64,000 nt of DNA from Rhizomicrobium sp. (GTDB lineage Bacteria > Pseudomonadota > Alphaproteobacteria > Micropepsales > Micropepsaceae), in contig JBBCIB010000001.1 of NCBI GenBank assembly GCA_037355265.1, positions 151,839-215,838 of the forward strand. Reading direction: 5' to 3'. Under the pieces are notes generated by a model, which saw only the letters and a program-made list of their open reading frames with translations, was not told the origin of the DNA and did no database searches. Of the stretch, positions 1,214-22,025 are shown in pieces. Both the position numbers and the translations under genes were made by a program. The stretch's first letter is position 1. Every line of letters starts with the position of its first letter.

Positions 1214-2082
1214 CGCTAGTCGCGCGGGTCGGGAGGGAGAGCAACCGGCGGTCGCACTCGGTTCCGCAGCTTCGCCGCTCCTGCGGGTGCGCCGCGTGGC
1301 GCGCGCTGATCGCGCGCCGCCGGTCGCTCGCCGGCGCGTTCGCCCGCGCGAAGGGCACGGCCTCCCGCAGCCTCCATCTTTCCGCACGGCTGCCGCCGCA
1401 GTCGTCTTGCTTCATGTCGGAGCTAACGCTCCGGCTCGATCGCGGGACCGCTGACGCTCGGACGCGCCGCATCCCCCGTCCTGCGCTGCCCGCGATCTCG
1501 GGCCGCATAACGGAGCCCGGCTGCTGAAACCAGCGAAACAGACCCCGAACATTGGAGGTGAACTTGGAAGGTCGCGGCATGTTCTTATACAAATTACATA
1601 CGGCCGCGATATTTACTTGCACAGCCAAGTCAATATGTTGTCGGCGGAATCGCAAAAGCCATTGCTCCTCATGGTCATTCGAGACAATACTTGGAGTTGT
1701 AGAGTGTCTCGTCTCGGGGGAATCGGATGGTCAAGGGCACTTGCATTGCTGCCGTTCTAGCGACCGCACTTCCAGTGATCTTTGCGTCGGCTGCCGACGC
1801 CCGATTTCTGCAAGCTGACCCCGTCGGATACAAGGATGACGTCGACCTCTACACCTACGTTCAGAATGATCCCACGAACAAGGTTGACCCGAGAGGCACC
1901 GATGCGGTGTGGGTCGTTGACCAGAACACCGGTCAAACCACACTCGTCATACCCGTCCAGTTTTCCGGACAGGGTGCCAGCGCCGCCAACGTCGGTGCGA
2001 TCGTCAATCGAGATAACACTCTCAGTATTTCGAATCCGAATATGAAGATTCAGGTGATTTCGACCAGCACCCCCATCAATGG

Positions 2083-3269
2083 CAGGGCTATCGCATATGT
2101 CGGATGAGGTCGAAGAGGAAGGCGTCGTCCCAGCCTGCGCGCAGGAGTTTTCGGCGAAGCGAGGTCTTTTTGTCGGGGTGCGCTCTTGCGATGTTGAGGG
2201 CCAATCTTCTGATGACGGCCAGGTTGGCGGGTCCGTTGTCCTTGCGATTGCGCGCGAGGTCTTCGTCCAGGACGACGTCGAGGGTCCAGTGCAGGGTGTT
2301 CTCGATGCCCCAATGCTCGCGCCTTATGGCGAGAAGCGTCTCGGCTTTGTAGGCGCGCGACAGCAAGAAGAAGCGTTCGACGGGTTCGTCCTGGTCGCGC
2401 CGGCTGGTGATCCTGGCAACCGCCACGAGGCCGGGAAAGCCGTGCTTTTGCGCCATCGTCTTGACGCTGGTGACGAGCGCGTCTCGGCTCTCGCTGCGGC
2501 CGTGGCGGGCATCGCGTGTGGTGGCCGGTTCGGTATGGGCCGGCAGCATGGCGATGGCAGCCTTGGTATCGGCCAGAAGGCCGGACTGATTGGCCTTCAC
2601 CGCCAGGACGTAATCGGCGCCTTTGTCGATGATCGCTTTGGCCATGTCGGCATGACAGTGCAGGGCGTCGGCGGTGACGATGCAGCCCTTGAGCGCCACC
2701 AGCGCGAGCGCGTCCAGCGCGCCCTGCGTCTCGTTGTTGTCCGCCGCCAGCACGCTGGCCAGCGTCATGCGGGTCTGCGCCCCCCACAGGCTCACCATCA
2801 TCCGGGGCATGTGGCTTTGACCGACCTCGTAGGCGCGCCGCAGCGACTTGCCGTCCACCGCGACGACGCCCTTGGTCTTGCCGAGCTTGGCCGACGCGCC
2901 GAAGGTCTGCATGAACCGGCCGAACGCCACCTCGAAGGCCGCAGGGTCCAACAGCCGGAACACACGGCTGAACGTGTCATGGCTCGGAATGCCGTGTTCC
3001 AGCGTCAGGATGGTGCGAAGCAAGGGTTCCTTGGCAAGGCCGAACTCTTCCATGTCGCTGCACGAGGTCGCGCCACACAGCGTCGCCAACAGCGCGATGA
3101 AGACAATCTCGACAAGCTCATGGCGGGCGTTGTCCGCCCGAGGATCGACCAAATCCCCAAAGCAGTCGTGGAAAGTGTCCAGCGGCATCTCCCAGAGAAT
3201 CAGAAGATACCTTCAGAATCCACTGGCTATCCGCTTACAAGCACAAAAATCCCATATGCGATTCCCCTG
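2083..3269 (-). mobile_element. ISAs1-family insertion sequence (1187 bp)
   Basis: Terminal IRs CAGGGCTATCGCATATG and CAGGGGAATCGCATATG (15/17 match); 10-bp TSD CCATCAATGG at 2073-2082 and 3270-3279. Confidence 0.95.
2088..3188 (-). CDS. ISAs1-family DDE transposase
   Basis: DPR...[55 protein letters not shown] motifs. Confidence 0.95.
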
Positions 3270-3633
3270 CCATCAATGGGGTGTTGAACAAAATGGATTT
3301 CAGTCCCGGCTACAACACGAGCATGTGTGGTGCAGCAGGCGAATGCGTGAATAAGCTCGGCGGCGACACCGCCCACATCAACAGCGCAAATGGGCAGTCC
3401 ACCGACGCGGCGGCTCATGACGTCCTTCACTTTGCCGGCGTAAAGGACCAATACATTGAGGGTCCTCCTGATGCGCAGGGCAACCGGACAAGTACGCCGG
3501 CGCCTGGCTATACCAACAGCAACATAATGACTTCGCGCAGCGGAACACAATTGACGCCTCAGCAGTTCCAAGAGGCACACGGCAACTCGACGACGAAGCA
3601 ATGTGTCGTGCAAACGGGCTCGAAGATTCCGGT

Positions 3634-4047
3634 ATGCCACTAAAGCTCATCAGCTGCCGCATGTTCGCAACGTTCGCTGCTGTTGCGCTGTCCAATTGCG
3701 CTTGCGCAGCGCAGCCACTTCCTCGCACGCCGGTCGAGGTCTGGCGTGGCGGCGATGACGGCCTGACTTCAAGATTTGGCGATGCGGTCGATGAAGCATT
3801 TCGAGCGTCATCGACCTTTACCCTTAGCTCCGGGAGCAAGCCCGGTACCATGATAGTGACGATTCCGACCAATGTTTCCTGGAAGCCAATCGGAACACGG
3901 ACGCAGGTAACCTATGCCGTGACATTCGCGACACTAGACAAGCGAAGTCTGGGAAGCAGCACCGGTATGTGTTTCGATGACGCACTCAGCGACTGCGCTG
4001 CTCATGTTCTGCGGGACGCGCAGGTGGCAGCAAAAGCGAGCAGATGA
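3634..4047 (+). CDS. Exported or lipoprotein-like small protein, putative cognate immunity protein
   Basis: Overlaps the toxin stop; hydrophobic N-terminus with LSNC; C-terminal Cys pair; start could be 3634 or 3661. Confidence 0.6.
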   Translation: MPLKLISCRMFATFAAVALSNCACAAQPLPRTPVEVWRGGDDGLTSRFGDAVDEAFRASSTFTLSSGSKPGTMIVTIPTNVSWKPIGTRTQVTYAVTFATLDKRSLGSSTGMCFDDALSDCAAHVLRDAQVAAKASR

Positions 4048-4161
4048 ATAGCCGGGCTTCTTGGCAAGGTGCCGATCAGGAGTTGGGATCACTCCAAGGC
4101 GTCCCAAGAGGCAACCCAGACCGCAATGGACCGCAGCCGTGCCGCATGGGGCGATTGAGCA

Positions 4162-4527
4162 ATGAACATCTGGAAATCGTCGATAATCGCAGTTGCCTGC
4201 GCCGCTGCATTGCTTTCTGCCCCAACGCTCGGTGAACAAGTCGGGTCTAAGCAATCACAATGCAAGACCGGTCCGGTGACCAAGCTGTACGGCGGGCCAA
4301 CTTGGCTTGTGTATAGCTGCGATGATGACAGAAGCGTCGTCATCGTTTCCGCGCCGGGCAGTCCCGCAGCTCCCTTCTACTTCAGTTATTTTCCCGAAGC
4401 GGGCGGATACCATCTGTCGGGAGAGTGAACCGGCGACCGGGCGGCAACGGATTTGGCGTACAAGGAGCTCGCTGCCCTCACGGCGAAAGACATTGCTCTA
4501 CTGATCGCAGAGACGAAGCGGCACTAA
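4162..4527 (+). pseudogene. Small exported protein with an in-frame TGA at 4426-4428 (orphan immunity-like)
   Basis: Signal peptide; frame continues after GE* as TGDRAATDLAYKELAALTAKDIALLIAETKRH to a TAA that overlaps the next ATG (TAATG). Confidence 0.7.
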
Positions 4528-5545
4528 TGCGCACGAAGCTATTCTTTTCGGCGATAGCGTGGAGTGTCGCGATCTGTTTTGCCGTGTCGCCGGCAGCAGC
4601 TCGTGTGCGGGCACCGTCGCTGCATCCGCCCACGAATGATCCCGTACAAGTCGTCCGCACGGTCATGGCGACTCCCGACGATAAGATCGATTTTGTCAAA
4701 GCAAAGCTGACGTTCGACAAGATTTATGATCCGACAACCGACATCGCTGGCCGGCTTGCGGACATCGATGCGATGGCGCAGACGATCCGAACGATGGCAG
4801 GGACTTCAGCGCCTCCGCGATTGCGCCTTATCATGCTGCGCAAGTACATCTATGACGCCGGCGCGTGGAACAACAACAAGCCGTTCCAATATGACCTCAG
4901 CGATCCGTTCGGCCGCAAGCCTGTAAACCGGCTGCTTTCCACCTACCTTGTTACGCATCATGGCAACTGCGTGAGCATGCCGATCCTGTTCGTGGCGCTG
5001 GCGCAGCGACTGGGGTTGAACGCGACGCTTTCGACCGCACCGAACCATATGTTCGTCAAGTACATGGATGACGTGACTGGCAAGACCATCAATCTGGAAA
5101 CGACCAGCGGAGCCTACCCCGCACGGGACGTCTATATCCGGCAGAACATGCCGATGACCGATCAGGCGATCGCGAACGGCATCTATATGAAGACGCTTTC
5201 CAAGAAAGAGGCACTGGCCGTCATGGCCGACATCGTTCTGGAGCGTGAATTTGCCGACCGACATTATCAGAAGGCTTGGGATGTGGCCGAGGTTCTGCAG
5301 CCCTATTATCCGAACAACCTCGCCGTTCTGTTGGCACCCAGCAATGCCGCTTTGGGGCTCATTCAGGAAGAGTATCTAAGCAAGTACCCCACCGAGGCGA
5401 TATACCGCTCCAGCTGATGGACCGTTTCAATTTGCTGGAGAAGACGGTGCCTGGCGCATTGAACCATGCTTATGCCCTAGGCTGGCGGGAAACGGACGGC
5501 GATGAGAAGCCGCCCGCAGCAGAAGCGTCAGACCGCCCGCAATAG
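4527..5545 (+). CDS. Exported SirB1/transglutaminase-like (Transglut_core2) protein; frameshift near 5397
   Basis: Signal peptide; GNCVSMPILF, APNHMFVKY and NLETTSG motifs (Cys-His-acid triad candidates); tail continues in another frame (DIPLQL...AYALGWRE). Confidence 0.8.
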
Positions 5546-5780
5546 TCCTCCCCGTGCACTGACTGGCGCACCGCGCTGCGCGCGGCCGGGCTCTCGCGCG
5601 CCGAGCCCGCTTCGCGGTCTCTGCCCTTCGGGCTTCGATCCCTTGCGCTTTTGGTAAGGCCAGCGCGCTGCCGCGCGCTGACTTTGTTTGATGCAATTCC
5701 CCTCCGCGGGAGTGGGCGGCGCTCCCTTCTAGGCCCGCCGCGGCGTGCCGCAACGCGCTCCGCGCGTCTTCCGCTTCGCT

Positions 5781-6165
5781 CCAGCCCTTCGGCGATGGCG
5801 CGCTTCAGGGCGACGTCGGCATAGCCGGCACCCTCGGTGCCCAGGTCGCGCAGCGCGGTGAAACCCGCCGCCAGCGTGGCGCGCGCATGGTTCACGGCGC
5901 GGACGGTGCGATAGGCTTCCGGCTCCTTCAGCACCTGATCGTCCCACGGCGTCTCGTCATAGGGATGCAGGAAGAGATGCGAATGCAGGTCCATCAGGCC
6001 GGGCAGCAGCGTGCAGCCGGGCAGCTCGATGTCCTGCACCACGACGCCGAGCGCATGGCGCGGCGCGACCTTGGCGATGCGGTCGCCGTCGACCAGCACC
6101 GACAGTCCTTCGCGCACGCCGTCCTCCGCGCTCCAGACGCGCGCGGGATGCAGCGCGACCGTCAC
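5781..6165 (-). pseudogene. Amidohydrolase-family gene, truncated at the 3' end by the island
   Basis: TLLPGLMDLHSHL...AGFTALRDLGTEGAGYADVALKRAIAEGL, then abrupt transition to non-coding hairpin sequence; only about 128 codons present. Confidence 0.85.
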
Positions 6166-6551
6166 GGCCCGCGCCAGGCGAGAGGGTGGCCTATGAGCGC
6201 GCGATCCACGGTGACGAAACGCAGGCCCTCGACCTGGCACTGCGCCAGCAGCAGCCGGTCGAAGGGATCGCGCGTGGGCGGCGGGTCGTCGAGATCTTCG
6301 ACGGCGTGGAAGGGCGTGACGGGCAGAAGCGTGTATTCGAGCGCTGCGAAATATGCGGGCAGGGATGCCAGCGGAATTGGCAGGGCGAGCTTCGACAAGC
6401 GATGCTTGATCGCCATTTCCCAAAAACTCGCAGAACTCGCGATTTTCTCGTTGCCGGCATCATCGAGCAGCCGGGCAATGGCGGCGCCGGTGGTCCTGAC
6501 ATTTCTGCGCAAGATGGCCATCAAAATATGGCTGTCGAGCAGAAGCCTCAT
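6162..6551 (-). CDS. vapC: PIN-domain toxin, VapC family
   Basis: LLLDSHIL, SFWEMAIK, RDPFDRLLLAQ, VTVDR motifs. Confidence 0.92.
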   Translation of the reverse strand: MRLLLDSHILMAILRRNVRTTGAAIARLLDDAGNEKIASSASFWEMAIKHRLSKLALPIPLASLPAYFAALEYTLLPVTPFHAVEDLDDPPPTRDPFDRLLLAQCQVEGLRFVTVDRALIGHPLAWRGP

Positions 6552-19712: not shown

Positions 19713-21950
19713 TCACCACTTCGTCTCGTACACCTTGATGCTGTCACCCTTCAGTGAGTTGACGCAGTCGGTGATCATCGATGCCGCGCGGGCATCGTCC
19801 ACACCGGCAACCGCGTTTGCTTTTTCCATTACGTTCTTAAAGCTCTCTGAGTGAAGGCGATTTGAAAGCCTGATGCCGAGCACGGACGGAAAGATCGTCC
19901 GATAGCTTTTCAGAACTTCTGTTGCAGAAGGAGCAAACGATATAAAATTCAGAAGGAATTCCGGCCTCATCATGAATCTCTGGCCCTTGTGACTGGCGAC
20001 CAGTTTTCCGGCGGCTCGGCGCACGGTAGCGTCTTGAGTAAGCCACCACGTTCTGAAACCAAATGGGTTTGCTGGGCTTCCTTCGCGTTCGATTTTGCGA
20101 CGCTGGTAGACCCGGTGCACCTGAAGTGCATCATTTTTGGCGAGAATCTCGACCTTGTCTTTGACGGTGCGCTGGGTTTCGGTTTTCAGTCTGACAATTT
20201 CGGCACTCAGCGCTTCAACGTCATCCAAGTCCAAACCATCGCGCATTTCTTCAACAGTCTCGTACTCCATTTTGAATTTGTTGATTAGATATCTCGCCAG
20301 TTCCTGGTCGCCTGTCCCATTGCGAATTGCAGTGTAGGACGCAAATTGATCGACATAAGAGCGCCATCCAACCGGAGGCTTGACGGACACAGATAACGGA
20401 GCGAGCCGTGAATAAAAATACGAGCGAATGAGAATCCGATCGATGTATTCGACTGCATCCAGCGTGACATGCCTCTCCACATGCTCGTAGTAATTTTGGA
20501 ACTCGAAAATTTGGCTTCGGATGTGAGTGGCGAACTCTTCGACCGCCTTTTCGGTCAAAATTAATTTGGCGCCTGCGGCGTGAAGAATCTTGAACAGGTT
20601 ATGGGTTGTTTGGTTTTGAGGCTCAAGATAATGCTCGGAGAGTGCTCGAACCAGAAAGTCGGTACCGATATAGAGGATGAATTTTGAGGAGATTGACTTG
20701 AAGTACTCGACTATCTTGGGCTCGTTCTTGAGTAGCAGAAGCAAGACGTATGTCCTGCCCAGTTTCTGCAAATACGCTCTTTCATCGTCACTGGGGTCGT
20801 AAAAGGTGCCTCGGAGAACGGCCAGCACGATCCGCCTTACGGTTGTCCGGTCGTCCAGTGCGTGGTTCTCATCAATGAGCTTCGCGACAAGATCGGCTAC
20901 ATTGGCGTATAGTTCATCGTCTTCTTCGCCGTTGTGCGCAAACTGCGCAACTTGAAGACCCTGCCGCTCGAATACACGCTCAAGTGCTGTGTGGCAGATC
21001 GTGACCACATCAGGGATGAGCGAGCGTTCGTTGTCGGATGTGAGCCCTTGGCAGCGCCGTTCAAAAGCGGCCGTCACGGCAGATTTCAGCGCTGTATCAT
21101 CGACATTTTCTTCTTTGATCAGCTCTCTAGTTTCAAAAGGGAGGCAATATTTCTGCTCAGTGCTATAATAGCGAACAGCACGATCCTCGCTGTTGTGCCT
21201 CGTTCTTAAATTGAGCAGTCGCGTGTCGATCACACCACGAATGAATTGCTTGGCAGAGGGAAGCGTTTCCTCAATTCTGTTTAAGATCGCGTCGCGATCC
21301 ATAAAAACTCTTTTGTCAGGATCGGTATCGGAAAGCGCCCAAATAATGAGGCTGTCGGCCACCGATTCAAGCAGCTCAGTCTTTCCTTGCCGATGGTCGA
21401 CCTCCTGACGAAGAAATACTGCAAGTGTTTTGTCGGAGTGGATCGCAGTGCCTTCGGCTATCGGCGCCGCGCCGGGGTTCACGAAGTGTGCAATTGCCGG
21501 TTCGAGGAAAGAAAGAAACGCAGCGATAGTTCCATCAGAATCGTTGACGTGCATTTGGATGTACTTGGCATCCAAAATGCGAATGCGACACGTGAGTTCG
21601 TCACTTAATGTTTCTTCGTACTGATCAATCGCTGGAACAGTTTCGCTGGAGATATAGGTCAGCGATTTGGGTTTTCTTCCGAACTCGTGAAGGCGTTTTA
21701 CAGTGCCTCTTATTTTCGTACCGAAAGTCTTCTGCTTTGAAACCTGAATGAAATGCTCCGCCGCGGCATCTTCAAAAATCTCAGGCTCTAAGAAGCCTTC
21801 TGCACCACCGTCGTGCATTCCCCCGAGAGGTACAAAGCCTCGACCGATCAGAGCTGTGTAAAAAGCTTGCCCAAAATATTCGAAGTCTGCCGTGCCGACC
21901 TCATTGAGGGCAGCCGCAACCAAACGAAGGTTTGCTGGAGGAAGTGCCAT
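19713..21950 (-). CDS. Low-GC hypothetical protein: N-terminal restriction-endonuclease-like domain plus C-terminal PIN-like domain
   Basis: FE..., GGMHDGGAEG, FIQVSKQK; later LYIGTDFLV, EEFATHI, NDAL, WWLTQD; AT-richer than flanks. Confidence 0.7.
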   Translation of the reverse strand: MALPPANLRLVAAALNEVGTADFEYFGQAFYTALIGRGFVPLGGMHDGGAEGFLEPEIFEDAAAEHFIQVSKQKTFGTKIRGTVKRLHEFGRKPKSLTYISSETVPAIDQYEETLSDELTCRIRILDAKYIQMHVNDSDGTIAAFLSFLEPAIAHFVNPGAAPIAEGTAIHSDKTLAVFLRQEVDHRQGKTELLESVADSLIIWALSDTDPDKRVFMDRDAILNRIEETLPSAKQFIRGVIDTRLLNLRTRHNSEDRAVRYYSTEQKYCLPFETRELIKEENVDDTALKSAVTAAFERRCQGLTSDNERSLIPDVVTICHTALERVFERQGLQVAQFAHNGEEDDELYANVADLVAKLIDENHALDDRTTVRRIVLAVLRGTFYDPSDDERAYLQKLGRTYVLLLLLKNEPKIVEYFKSISSKFILYIGTDFLVRALSEHYLEPQNQTTHNLFKILHAAGAKLILTEKAVEEFATHIRSQIFEFQNYYEHVERHVTLDAVEYIDRILIRSYFYSRLAPLSVSVKPPVGWRSYVDQFASYTAIRNGTGDQELARYLINKFKMEYETVEEMRDGLDLDDVEALSAEIVRLKTETQRTVKDKVEILAKNDALQVHRVYQRRKIEREGSPANPFGFRTWWLTQDATVRRAAGKLVASHKGQRFMMRPEFLLNFISFAPSATEVLKSYRTIFPSVLGIRLSNRLHSESFKNVMEKANAVAGVDDARAASMITDCVNSLKGDSIKVYETKW

Positions 21951-22025
21951 CGTGCCGTATCCCTGTTGGGATTATGGACCGATTCTGAGAAAATTGAAGT
22001 CAGAGCGGAACCCAGGCAATTATCC

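What the first reader, a model, noticed from the sequence alone, without database searches (positions are those of the whole stretch)
1727..5545. Candidate undescribed secreted-toxin system: Sec-exported mini-RHS, immunity genes and an exported transglutaminase-like protein
Seen: a co-oriented cassette in which every gene has a signal peptide. Gene 1 (239 aa after removing the IS) has a signal peptide ending ASAADA, followed immediately by the RHS-core terminal motif ([10 protein letters not shown]...[17 protein letters not shown]) and a variable C-terminal domain. There are no YD repeats, and an in-frame stop at 1700-1702 shows no RHS body upstream. Two small exported proteins and a SirB1/transglutaminase-like protein follow. 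Known: in canonical RHS toxins this motif is the aspartyl autoprotease at the end of a >1000-aa YD shell, delivered by T6SS, Tc or similar, and orphan tips normally lack their own signal peptide. Inference: a shell-less polymorphic toxin class exported by Sec, possibly matured, anchored or loaded in trans by the transglutaminase-like protein.
Basis: partly seen in the sequence, partly recalled or inferred. Interest (0 to 1): 0.88.

Follow-up and report, generated by a model that had tools for sequence, protein, structure and literature searches.

The report
Split RHS toxin with loading enzyme
This is a damaged copy of a widespread bacterial gene cassette in which a swappable, likely toxic tip of an RHS toxin is encoded apart from its shell, beside a cysteine enzyme predicted to cut the shell and attach the tip, which would be a new way of arming toxins after they are made.

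Summary
The window encodes a signal peptide fused directly to the last 32 residues of the RHS core plus a variable C-terminal domain. A small exported gene, a second small gene and an exported Cys-His-Glu transglutaminase-like enzyme follow. This copy is broken in three places; an intact natural orthologue exists.

The pairing is conserved: such tips lie beside the enzyme in 83 of 86 loci with enough flank, mostly across Pseudomonadota, with 81 C-terminal families among 117 tips. Tips keep both autoprotease aspartates but lack the arginine that RHS self-cleavage needs.

In 11 Rhizobiales loci I found the missing half: RHS shells that keep that arginine, lack both the second aspartate motif and a toxin, and end in a six-residue tail mimicking the tip's start. 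In one family sample, 7 of 11 enzyme genomes have shells, against 12 of 240 without the enzyme.

Best reading (0.45, inferred): the enzyme cuts shells at Gly|Arg and joins the tip on. Against this, no shell was found in 15 of 46 enzyme genomes, and binding could not be modelled. Ten literature searches found no description.

The parts
1727..1801 (+). Predicted Sec signal peptide of the tip protein (25 aa, ends A-D-A)
   Evidence: Translation. Ala at -1 in 96 of 104 and a hydrophobic core in 94 of 104 enzyme-linked tips, against 2 and 5 of 48 motif hits in the control set. Heuristic; no SignalP.
1802..1897 (+). RHS terminal motif (32 aa, R...DP...DPxG): both aspartates present, upstream catalytic arginine absent
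   Evidence: TIGR03696 positions 43-75; aligns to YenC2 658-690; pLDDT below 50 for residues 1-30 in the model of the L014 orthologue.
1898..2082 (+). 5' part of the C-terminal putative toxin domain, up to the insertion
   Evidence: homologues.
2083..3269 (-). ISAs1-family insertion sequence (transposase 2088-3188) with a 10-bp target duplication at 2073-2082 and 3270-3279; breaks the tip gene
   Evidence: absent from L014.
3280..3643 (+). 3' part of the C-terminal domain: predicted metzincin-like fold with H-D-x-x-H at 3416-3430 instead of H-E-x-x-H
   Evidence: Model of the natural orthologue, mean pLDDT 87; best fold matches ADAM/snapalysin Z 8.7-8.2; Atlas M10-like clusters; the two His nearly invariant among 36 aligned rows.
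3634..4047 (+). Small exported protein overlapping the tip's stop; predicted cognate immunity protein
   Evidence: Same gene follows the same C-terminal domain in L014; replaced together with it in L092 and L094. No Pfam or NCBIfam family; unnamed Atlas clusters. Immunity is inferred from position.
4162..4527 (+). Second small exported gene, stopped early at 4426-4428; likely a left-over immunity gene
   Evidence: 123 aa in L014; also present (frameshifted) behind a different tip in L093/L094; stop also in an RNA contig.
4527..5545 (+). Exported transglutaminase-like enzyme (PF13369) with Cys 4968, His 5046, Glu 5097 and a TPR-like C-terminus; frameshifted near 5397
   Evidence: Triad invariant in 38 of 38 and 67 of 67 aligned homologues (the second set was picked by its Cys motif). 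Fold closest to menin, Z 14.9.

Best explanation
The cassette encodes the tip half of a split RHS toxin together with a cysteine enzyme that is predicted to cut an RHS shell at its Gly|Arg-Phe junction and join the tip there, so that a complete toxin would be assembled after export. Shown: tip and enzyme are conserved neighbours; tips begin at the Arg of that junction; tip-less shells end six conserved residues after it; the autoprotease residues are divided between the two halves. Inferred steps: (1) Sec exports tip, enzyme and shell, and signal peptidase leaves Arg with a free amine on most tips. (2) The enzyme recognises R-[FY]-x-x-x-[DE], cuts the shell's placeholder tail or the native tip of a complete RHS, and forms an acyl-enzyme. 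(3) The tip's N-terminus resolves the acyl-enzyme, restoring a continuous chain. (4) The shell's Arg and the tip's two Asp then form the usual autoprotease, which frees the toxin inside the shell. (5) A type II system exports the complex, and the adjacent gene protects the producer. In this genome the likely acceptor would be a complete Sec-type RHS elsewhere, and this copy is probably inactive.
For: Exact complementarity: the Arg 13 residues before the first Asp is in 42 of 48 motif hits of the control set and 4 of 104 enzyme-linked tips. That Arg is R2103 of BiTLP, whose mutation reduces cleavage (PMC13018210, section 7). Tip-less shells keep it and stop after G|R[FY][VIL]P[KARP][DE] in 11 Rhizobiales loci. 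Four are full open frames of about 1800-1950 codons (L109, L252, L253/L283, L316/L341). The six tail residues use many synonymous codons and conservation ends after them, so the signal is at protein level. Enzyme genes start at or near the shell's stop in seven loci, with 4-nt overlaps in two. In two genomes shell end and tip are adjacent while the enzyme lies on another contig. Shells and enzyme co-occur: 7 of 11 against 12 of 240 in one family sample; 23 of 34 enzyme genomes against 114 of 401 background. A six-member clade lacks the hydrophobic leader on the enzyme and the AxA site on the tip, which ends its leader in Gly|Arg instead. The catalytic triad is invariant. A T2SS cluster lies next to the shell in Neorhizobium, and this genome has three GspD genes. 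The window's motif is 24 of 32 identical to that of a co-resident complete RHS with a signal-like leader.
Against: No shell was found in 15 of 46 enzyme genomes, including a complete Mesorhizobium chromosome assembly and a 99% complete genome, where enzyme and tip frames are open. Four of 11 lacked one in the family sample. Tip-less shells were seen only in Rhizobiales, and none in this genome. Mesorhizobium tips, including those beside tip-less shells, carry about 20 extra residues before the Arg, so the amine is not free without a further cut. Position 1 is not always Arg (100 of 104). One tip-less end with a tip has no enzyme in 19 kb or on that plasmid (L284). Each tip-less shell is closest to complete RHS genes of its own lineage or genome (97-100% in two cases), so recombination shapes them. 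How a cargo enters a closed shell is unexplained. Related genomes are not independent, so the co-occurrence statistics overstate.
Confidence: 0.45

Rival explanations
1. Shell-free system: the enzyme is a maturation protease that binds the 32-residue motif as a leader and cuts after DPxG, replacing self-cleavage, as proposed for the S8 peptidase of S8-PTS. Tip-less shells would be a local Rhizobiales addition.
For: Enzyme and tip frames are open in genomes where no shell was found (15 of 46). No third gene family recurs across most loci. The motif is unstructured alone. The fold is shared with LapG and other cysteine proteases. Precedents: S8-PTS (PMC9424270, abstract and section 3.4) and McjB (PMC10318531, passage). 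Five of 5 viral loci carry the pair.
Against: It does not explain intact tip-less shells with a conserved six-residue tail, the shell enrichment, or the start of most tips exactly at the Arg (83 of 109 distinct tips are AxA|R). Both Asp are kept in 104 of 104 tips (partly forced by the profile).
Confidence: 0.28
2. Non-covalent split RHS: the enzyme only removes the shell's tail (or the tip's pro-piece), and the tip completes the end of the shell by strand exchange without a new peptide bond.
For: All the complementarity evidence. Tips with linkers. TcB and TcC form one cocoon as separate chains (PMC8765631, passage).
Against: It gives less reason for an exact AxA|R start across alpha-, beta- and gammaproteobacteria and Oligoflexia. 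It shares the problem of genomes without a shell.
Confidence: 0.15
3. The enzyme is a true transglutaminase that cross-links the tip through a glutamine to the cell envelope or a carrier.
For: PF13369 annotation; Gln at position 4 in 89 of 124 tips.
Against: Position 4 is Ser, Glu, Thr or Lys in 35 of 124. Shell tails have Pro there.
Confidence: 0.05
4. The tips are silent orphan modules and the linkage is a historical accident.
For: Short Rhs genes are read as unexpressed recombination stock (10.1101/2024.02.26.582050, passage). Many copies, this one included, are broken.
Against: Conserved signal peptides. Linkage in both gene orders across several classes. Of the motif hits in 40 control regions only two were signal-type, both in a genome that has the enzyme. 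Ten ordinary SirB1-like loci had no tip.
Confidence: 0.05

Closest known systems
RHS/YD polymorphic toxins (T6SS RhsA, Tc BC subunits, bacterial teneurin-like proteins)
   Same: Same terminal motif, variable C-terminal domains and adjacent small genes. The window's C-terminal domain also occurs on proteins with YD-shell hits.
   Different: The chain is split between the catalytic Arg and the two Asp. The tip has its own signal peptide and a dedicated enzyme gene.
Orphan rhs modules
   Same: Short motif-plus-toxin genes; exchange by recombination (L092 and L094 against L014).
   Different: Orphans in the control set begin upstream of the Arg and have Gly before the motif (44 of 48) and mostly no hydrophobic leader. 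They have no partner enzyme.
S8-PTS (Li, Tan and Zhang 2022, PMC9424270)
   Same: Three parts: secreted peptidase, signal-peptide toxin with a conserved N-terminal region, immunity gene.
   Different: Here the enzyme is papain/transglutaminase-like rather than S8, the conserved region is the RHS terminal motif rather than BetaH, hosts are mainly Pseudomonadota, and complementary shells exist.
RHS toxins with an N-terminal inactive transglutaminase domain (Zhang et al. 2012, PMC3482391)
   Same: Signal peptide, transglutaminase fold and RHS occur together. One complete RHS of this genome has a weak Transglut_core hit.
   Different: There the domain is fused and lacks its triad; here the enzyme is a separate PF13369 protein with an intact triad.
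SirB1/YchA (PF13369) and menin
   Same: Transglutaminase-like core plus TPR-like helices. PMC10318531 (passage) calls the family's function unknown.
   Different: Far below the SirB1 cut-off. Exported, with a conserved Cys; the SirB1-like controls show neither the Cys motif nor a tip nearby.
Sortase- and lasso B2-type leader-cutting enzymes (sortase chemistry recalled, not from a call)
   Same: A Cys enzyme that cuts at a short signal and, for sortase, joins to a free N-terminus.
   Different: Analogy of chemistry only; no homology to sortase was tested or is claimed.

Membership tests
RHS/YD toxin (tip protein) | YD-repeat shell in the same chain | tested here: not met
   No Pfam hit, upstream stop, 239-aa orthologue.
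RHS/YD toxin (tip protein) | Terminal motif with two Asp (DP...DPxG) | tested here: met
RHS/YD toxin (tip protein) | Conserved Arg 13 residues before the first Asp | tested here: not met
   Falls inside the signal peptide here; Arg in 4 of 104 tips; reference position from PMC13018210.
RHS/YD toxin (tip protein) | Self-cleavage after DPxG | not testable with these tools
   Needs protein work.
Polymorphic toxin system | Conserved N-terminus with hypervariable C-termini | tested here: met
   117 C-termini, 102 at 90% identity, 81 families.
Polymorphic toxin system | C-termini include known toxin families | tested here: met
   13 of 102 at E<=0.001: Tlde1 x7 (3 above cut-off), Peptidase_M91 x3, CDI EC869-like, colicin E5, HNH. 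Three hit other families and 86 none.
Polymorphic toxin system | Cognate immunity gene directly downstream | tested here: inconclusive
   A small gene was found after 95 of 103 tips and swaps with the C-terminus; protection untested.
Orphan rhs module | Core homology upstream of the motif, no own export signal | tested here: not met
S8-PTS | S8 peptidase and BetaH domain | tested here: not met
   The partner is PF13369 with a transglutaminase-like fold; the conserved region is the RHS motif.
SirB1 (NF008188) | Score above the curated cut-off of 391 bits | tested here: not met
   No hit for the window protein or two close relatives; 24-26 bits for three others.
Active transglutaminase-like Cys enzyme | Cys-His-acid triad on a papain-like core | tested here: met
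   Activity itself untested.
Metzincin peptidase (window C-terminal domain) | Fold and HExxH motif | tested here: inconclusive
   All top fold rows are metzincins but Z is at most 8.7; the motif reads HDxxH in most homologues.

The most novel reading that the evidence does not exclude
Bacteria swap RHS warheads at the protein level: a periplasmic cysteine transpeptidase of the uncharacterised PF13369 family ligates separately exported toxin tips onto dedicated empty shells or onto existing RHS toxins. A mobile two-gene cassette could then re-arm any compatible shell without touching its gene.
Probability: 0.4. Interest if true: 0.95.

Novelty: categorically new. Interest (0 to 1): 0.86.

Why it matters
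RHS diversification is understood as DNA recombination within one gene. A naturally split RHS, with the autoprotease residues divided between two proteins and an enzyme gene between them, would add protein-level assembly, and would show that a shell can be loaded from outside its own chain. It would also give a first substrate to the PF13369 family, whose bacterial role is described as unknown (PMC10318531). Even under the shell-free rival, it is an undescribed polymorphic toxin system with a strong enzyme match in 6 of 400 sampled Pseudomonadota genomes, and present on plasmids and viral contigs. Most of its C-termini have no Pfam family. Cultured, non-pathogenic hosts with intact loci make the test direct.

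Tried and rejected
Complex prediction of enzyme with tip was not available, so binding is neither shown nor excluded. The profile search of the 50% representatives was accepted but had not finished when the report was written.

A search for longer, fused forms of the enzyme found none (weak evidence). The one in-frame enzyme-tip read-through (L024) looks like a frameshift product, since the tip's own leader lies inside it.

PF25023 was too insensitive to test for shells, so TIGR03696 and PF05593 were used. My YD regex missed most shells and my motif typing left 17 rows unclassified, so no co-evolution claim is made from the tree. Partial TIGR03696 hits outside Rhizobiales, in the regions fetched, were broken orphans or insertions, not tip-less shells.

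A DNA attachment site as the cause of the conserved shell tail was rejected because the codons vary. No sigma-70 promoter or terminator was found upstream. RNA contigs from the same sample cover parts of the cassette but do not show transcription. No contig among the rows shown joined across the insertion.

Ten literature searches gave no description of this system; subscription papers and bioRxiv supplements were not covered. Three look-ups of earlier scan findings gave nothing on it.
Full report
Observation. The window at 1727 encodes a 25-residue hydrophobic leader ending A-D-A, followed at once by the RHS terminal motif. TIGR03696 matches only its last 33 positions, and a stop lies just upstream. 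An ISAs1 element at 2083-3269 with a 10-bp target duplication interrupts the gene. Rhizomicrobium sp. SMAG_U6007 (L014) has the same cassette uninterrupted: tip 239 aa, a 137-aa exported gene, a 123-aa exported gene and a 339-aa enzyme, 89% identical in DNA over the 3' part. Against it, the window's gene 3 has an internal stop and gene 4 a frameshift near 5397. An RNA contig of the same sample carries the stop; the frameshift is covered only by the possible source run. The genome is 76% complete. This copy is probably inactive. Signal peptides were judged by hydropathy and the AxA pattern only.

The pair is conserved. The enzyme has 660 relatives in the protein search. I fetched the best 78 of 290 genome matches and the best 80 of 303 metagenome matches. 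A tip motif lies in 138 of these 158 loci, and in 83 of the 86 with at least 2.5 kb on both sides (not de-duplicated). With the profile alone and enzymes clustered at 95%, the figures are 111 of 136 and 70 of 77, and 110 of 111 are on the enzyme's strand, in both gene orders. Four of those seven misses are longer Rhizobiales motifs found by the regex. Hosts are alpha-, beta- and gammaproteobacteria and Oligoflexia, with single records under other names. In an even sample of 400 Pseudomonadota genomes, 6 had strong enzyme matches and 10 had weak SirB1-like ones. Tips were seen beside the enzyme in four of the six and beside none of the ten (1.5-kb flanks). All 5 viral loci had tips. No other family recurred in most loci; a type II secretin was in 7.

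Controls. In 40 regions chosen for short motif-bearing frames in genomes of the window's family, only two hits had a signal peptide before the motif. Both were in a genome that has the enzyme elsewhere. Counted on distinct ungapped matches, the residue before the motif is Ala in 96 of 104 enzyme-linked tips and Gly in 44 of 48 control hits, and a hydrophobic core precedes 94 of 104 against 5 of 48.

Polymorphism. The 117 C-termini of at least 60 aa fall into 102 groups at 90% identity and 81 families. Thirteen of 102 hit known toxin families and 86 hit nothing. Close relatives keep leader, motif and enzyme but change the C-terminus and the next gene (L092, L094). The gene after the tip had a hydrophobic start or lipobox in 61 of 103 cases, looked soluble in 34, was not found in 7 and was the enzyme in 1. 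The window's C-terminus is predicted to be metzincin-like with HDxxH; the fold scores are middling and activity is unknown. The same domain occurs on proteins with YD-shell hits.

The enzyme. The model is confident (mean pLDDT 89) and resembles menin (Z 14.9, 256 residues aligned), TglA, PNGase and LapG: a transglutaminase-like core with TPR-like helices. Cys, His and Glu are invariant in both alignments (the second was selected on the Cys motif). It is far below the SirB1 cut-off. A hydrophobic leader was seen in 133 of 144. A six-member Sphingomonadales-type clade (support 99) lacks it, and its tips lack the AxA site and end their leader in Gly|Arg. That is one event, but it keeps the partners in one compartment.

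The tip lacks one catalytic residue. In BiTLP the autoprotease uses D2116, D2140 and R2103, and mutating the Arg reduces cleavage (PMC13018210, section 7 read). The Arg sits 13 residues before the first Asp. The tip motif maps to YenC2 658-690, which puts the recalled R650 at the same offset. That position is Arg in 42 of 48 control hits and 4 of 104 tips. In the model of the mature L014 tip, residues 1-30 have pLDDT below 50.

The missing half. On plasmids of Rhizobium lentis and Neorhizobium petrolearium, the enzyme gene overlaps the stop of a 1832- or 1855-aa SpvB/TcdB-type RHS gene. These proteins keep the Arg, reach Gly|Arg-Phe and end after a short tail with no DPxG and no toxin. Eleven Rhizobiales loci show this end. 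Four are full open frames, four are cut by contig ends and three are short frames. The tail reads R[FY][VIL]P[KARP][DE] and then diverges, whereas the complete RHS proteins shown read R[FY][IV]S[PA]D. Its codons vary synonymously. In Neorhizobium a complete RHS, a full type II secretion cluster, the tip-less shell, enzyme, tip and a small gene lie in a row. In two genomes shell end and tip are adjacent and the enzyme is on another contig.

Co-occurrence. In 251 genomes drawn evenly from one family, 19 had a shell end, 11 the enzyme and 7 both (Fisher p 1e-6). Of the 34 shell-end matches, 30 were fetched as loci. Tip-less ends were recognised in two genomes, both with the enzyme, and in none of the enzyme-less ones. 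Of 34 enzyme genomes picked before their shell status was known, 23 had a complete core domain against 114 of 401 in the phylum sample. Kin are not independent and some genomes recur between samples.

Results against the reading. No shell was found in 15 of 46 enzyme genomes, among them Mesorhizobium sp. AaZ16, although the search does detect tip-less ends where they are known. Tip-less shells were not found outside Rhizobiales or in this genome. Mesorhizobium tips carry a linker before the Arg. L284 has a tip-less end and a tip without an enzyme nearby. Tip-less shells are nearly identical to complete RHS genes of the same genome in two cases. No fused forms were found.

Mechanism. I commit to cut-and-join at the Gly|Arg junction (0.45), because it accounts at once for the tip's exact start, the mimic tail, the division of catalytic residues and the invariant Cys. 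A shell-free maturation protease (0.28) and non-covalent completion (0.15) are the serious rivals. Every enzymatic step is inferred. For this genome, two complete RHS proteins with signal-like leaders are candidates, and the tip's motif is 24 of 32 identical to one of them. Three GspD genes are present.

Comparison with what is known. It works like a polymorphic toxin system and meets two of three tested features, but the tip is not an RHS protein by shell or Arg, not an orphan module, and not S8-PTS. Papers seen: PMC3482391 (passages), PMC9424270 (abstract, outline, section 3.4), PMC10318531 (passages), PMC3495828 (passages, not used), PMC13018210 (passages, section 7), 10.1101/2024.02.26.582050 (passages), PMC8765631 (passages); all others as search listings only. 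Ten searches found no description. The supplements of PMC3482391, which I did not open, could list such loci, and closed-access papers were not searched.

Verdict. A real, widespread and apparently undescribed cassette, with direct genomic evidence of a split RHS in one order and an untested ligation mechanism. Interest 0.86.

Noticed in passing
Proteins P0009, P0013, P0014, P0071: Close relatives of the enzyme are fused to a C-terminal redoxin/AhpC-TSA domain, which may keep the catalytic Cys reduced or handle disulfides of the tips.
   Followed up: partly
window 1239-1498 and 5570-5790: GC-rich palindromic stretches flank the cassette. Similar DNA flanks it in L014, L094 and L095 at other chromosomal sites, the downstream one has two more copies in this genome, and one contig of the sample joins 1491 to 5580. 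It may mark the insertion site.
   Followed up: partly
window about 5750-6200 (minus strand): The start of what looks like an amidohydrolase gene (label recalled from the translation) ends at the downstream repeat, next to a PIN-domain gene at 6162-6551.
   Followed up: no
Proteins P0130, P0144, P0151, P0153; L034, L131, L237: Another class of short RHS proteins: a signal-like leader followed by the whole core domain including the catalytic Arg. Some lie beside the enzyme.
   Followed up: no
L045, L047, L132, L158, L229, L292: Two or more tips near one enzyme gene or in one array, suggesting that one enzyme serves several tips.
   Followed up: partly
L077, L136, L152, L168, L171, L232, L234, L249: Some enzymes carry an extra N-terminal region before the core; not characterised.
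   Followed up: no
L015 and L098: The cassette sits between clpX-like and lon-like genes (labels recalled from translations) with different tips, while other Rhizomicrobium-like genomes have it at other sites.
   Followed up: no
window 20001-22000: A second low-GC island (about 50% against 67%).
   Followed up: no
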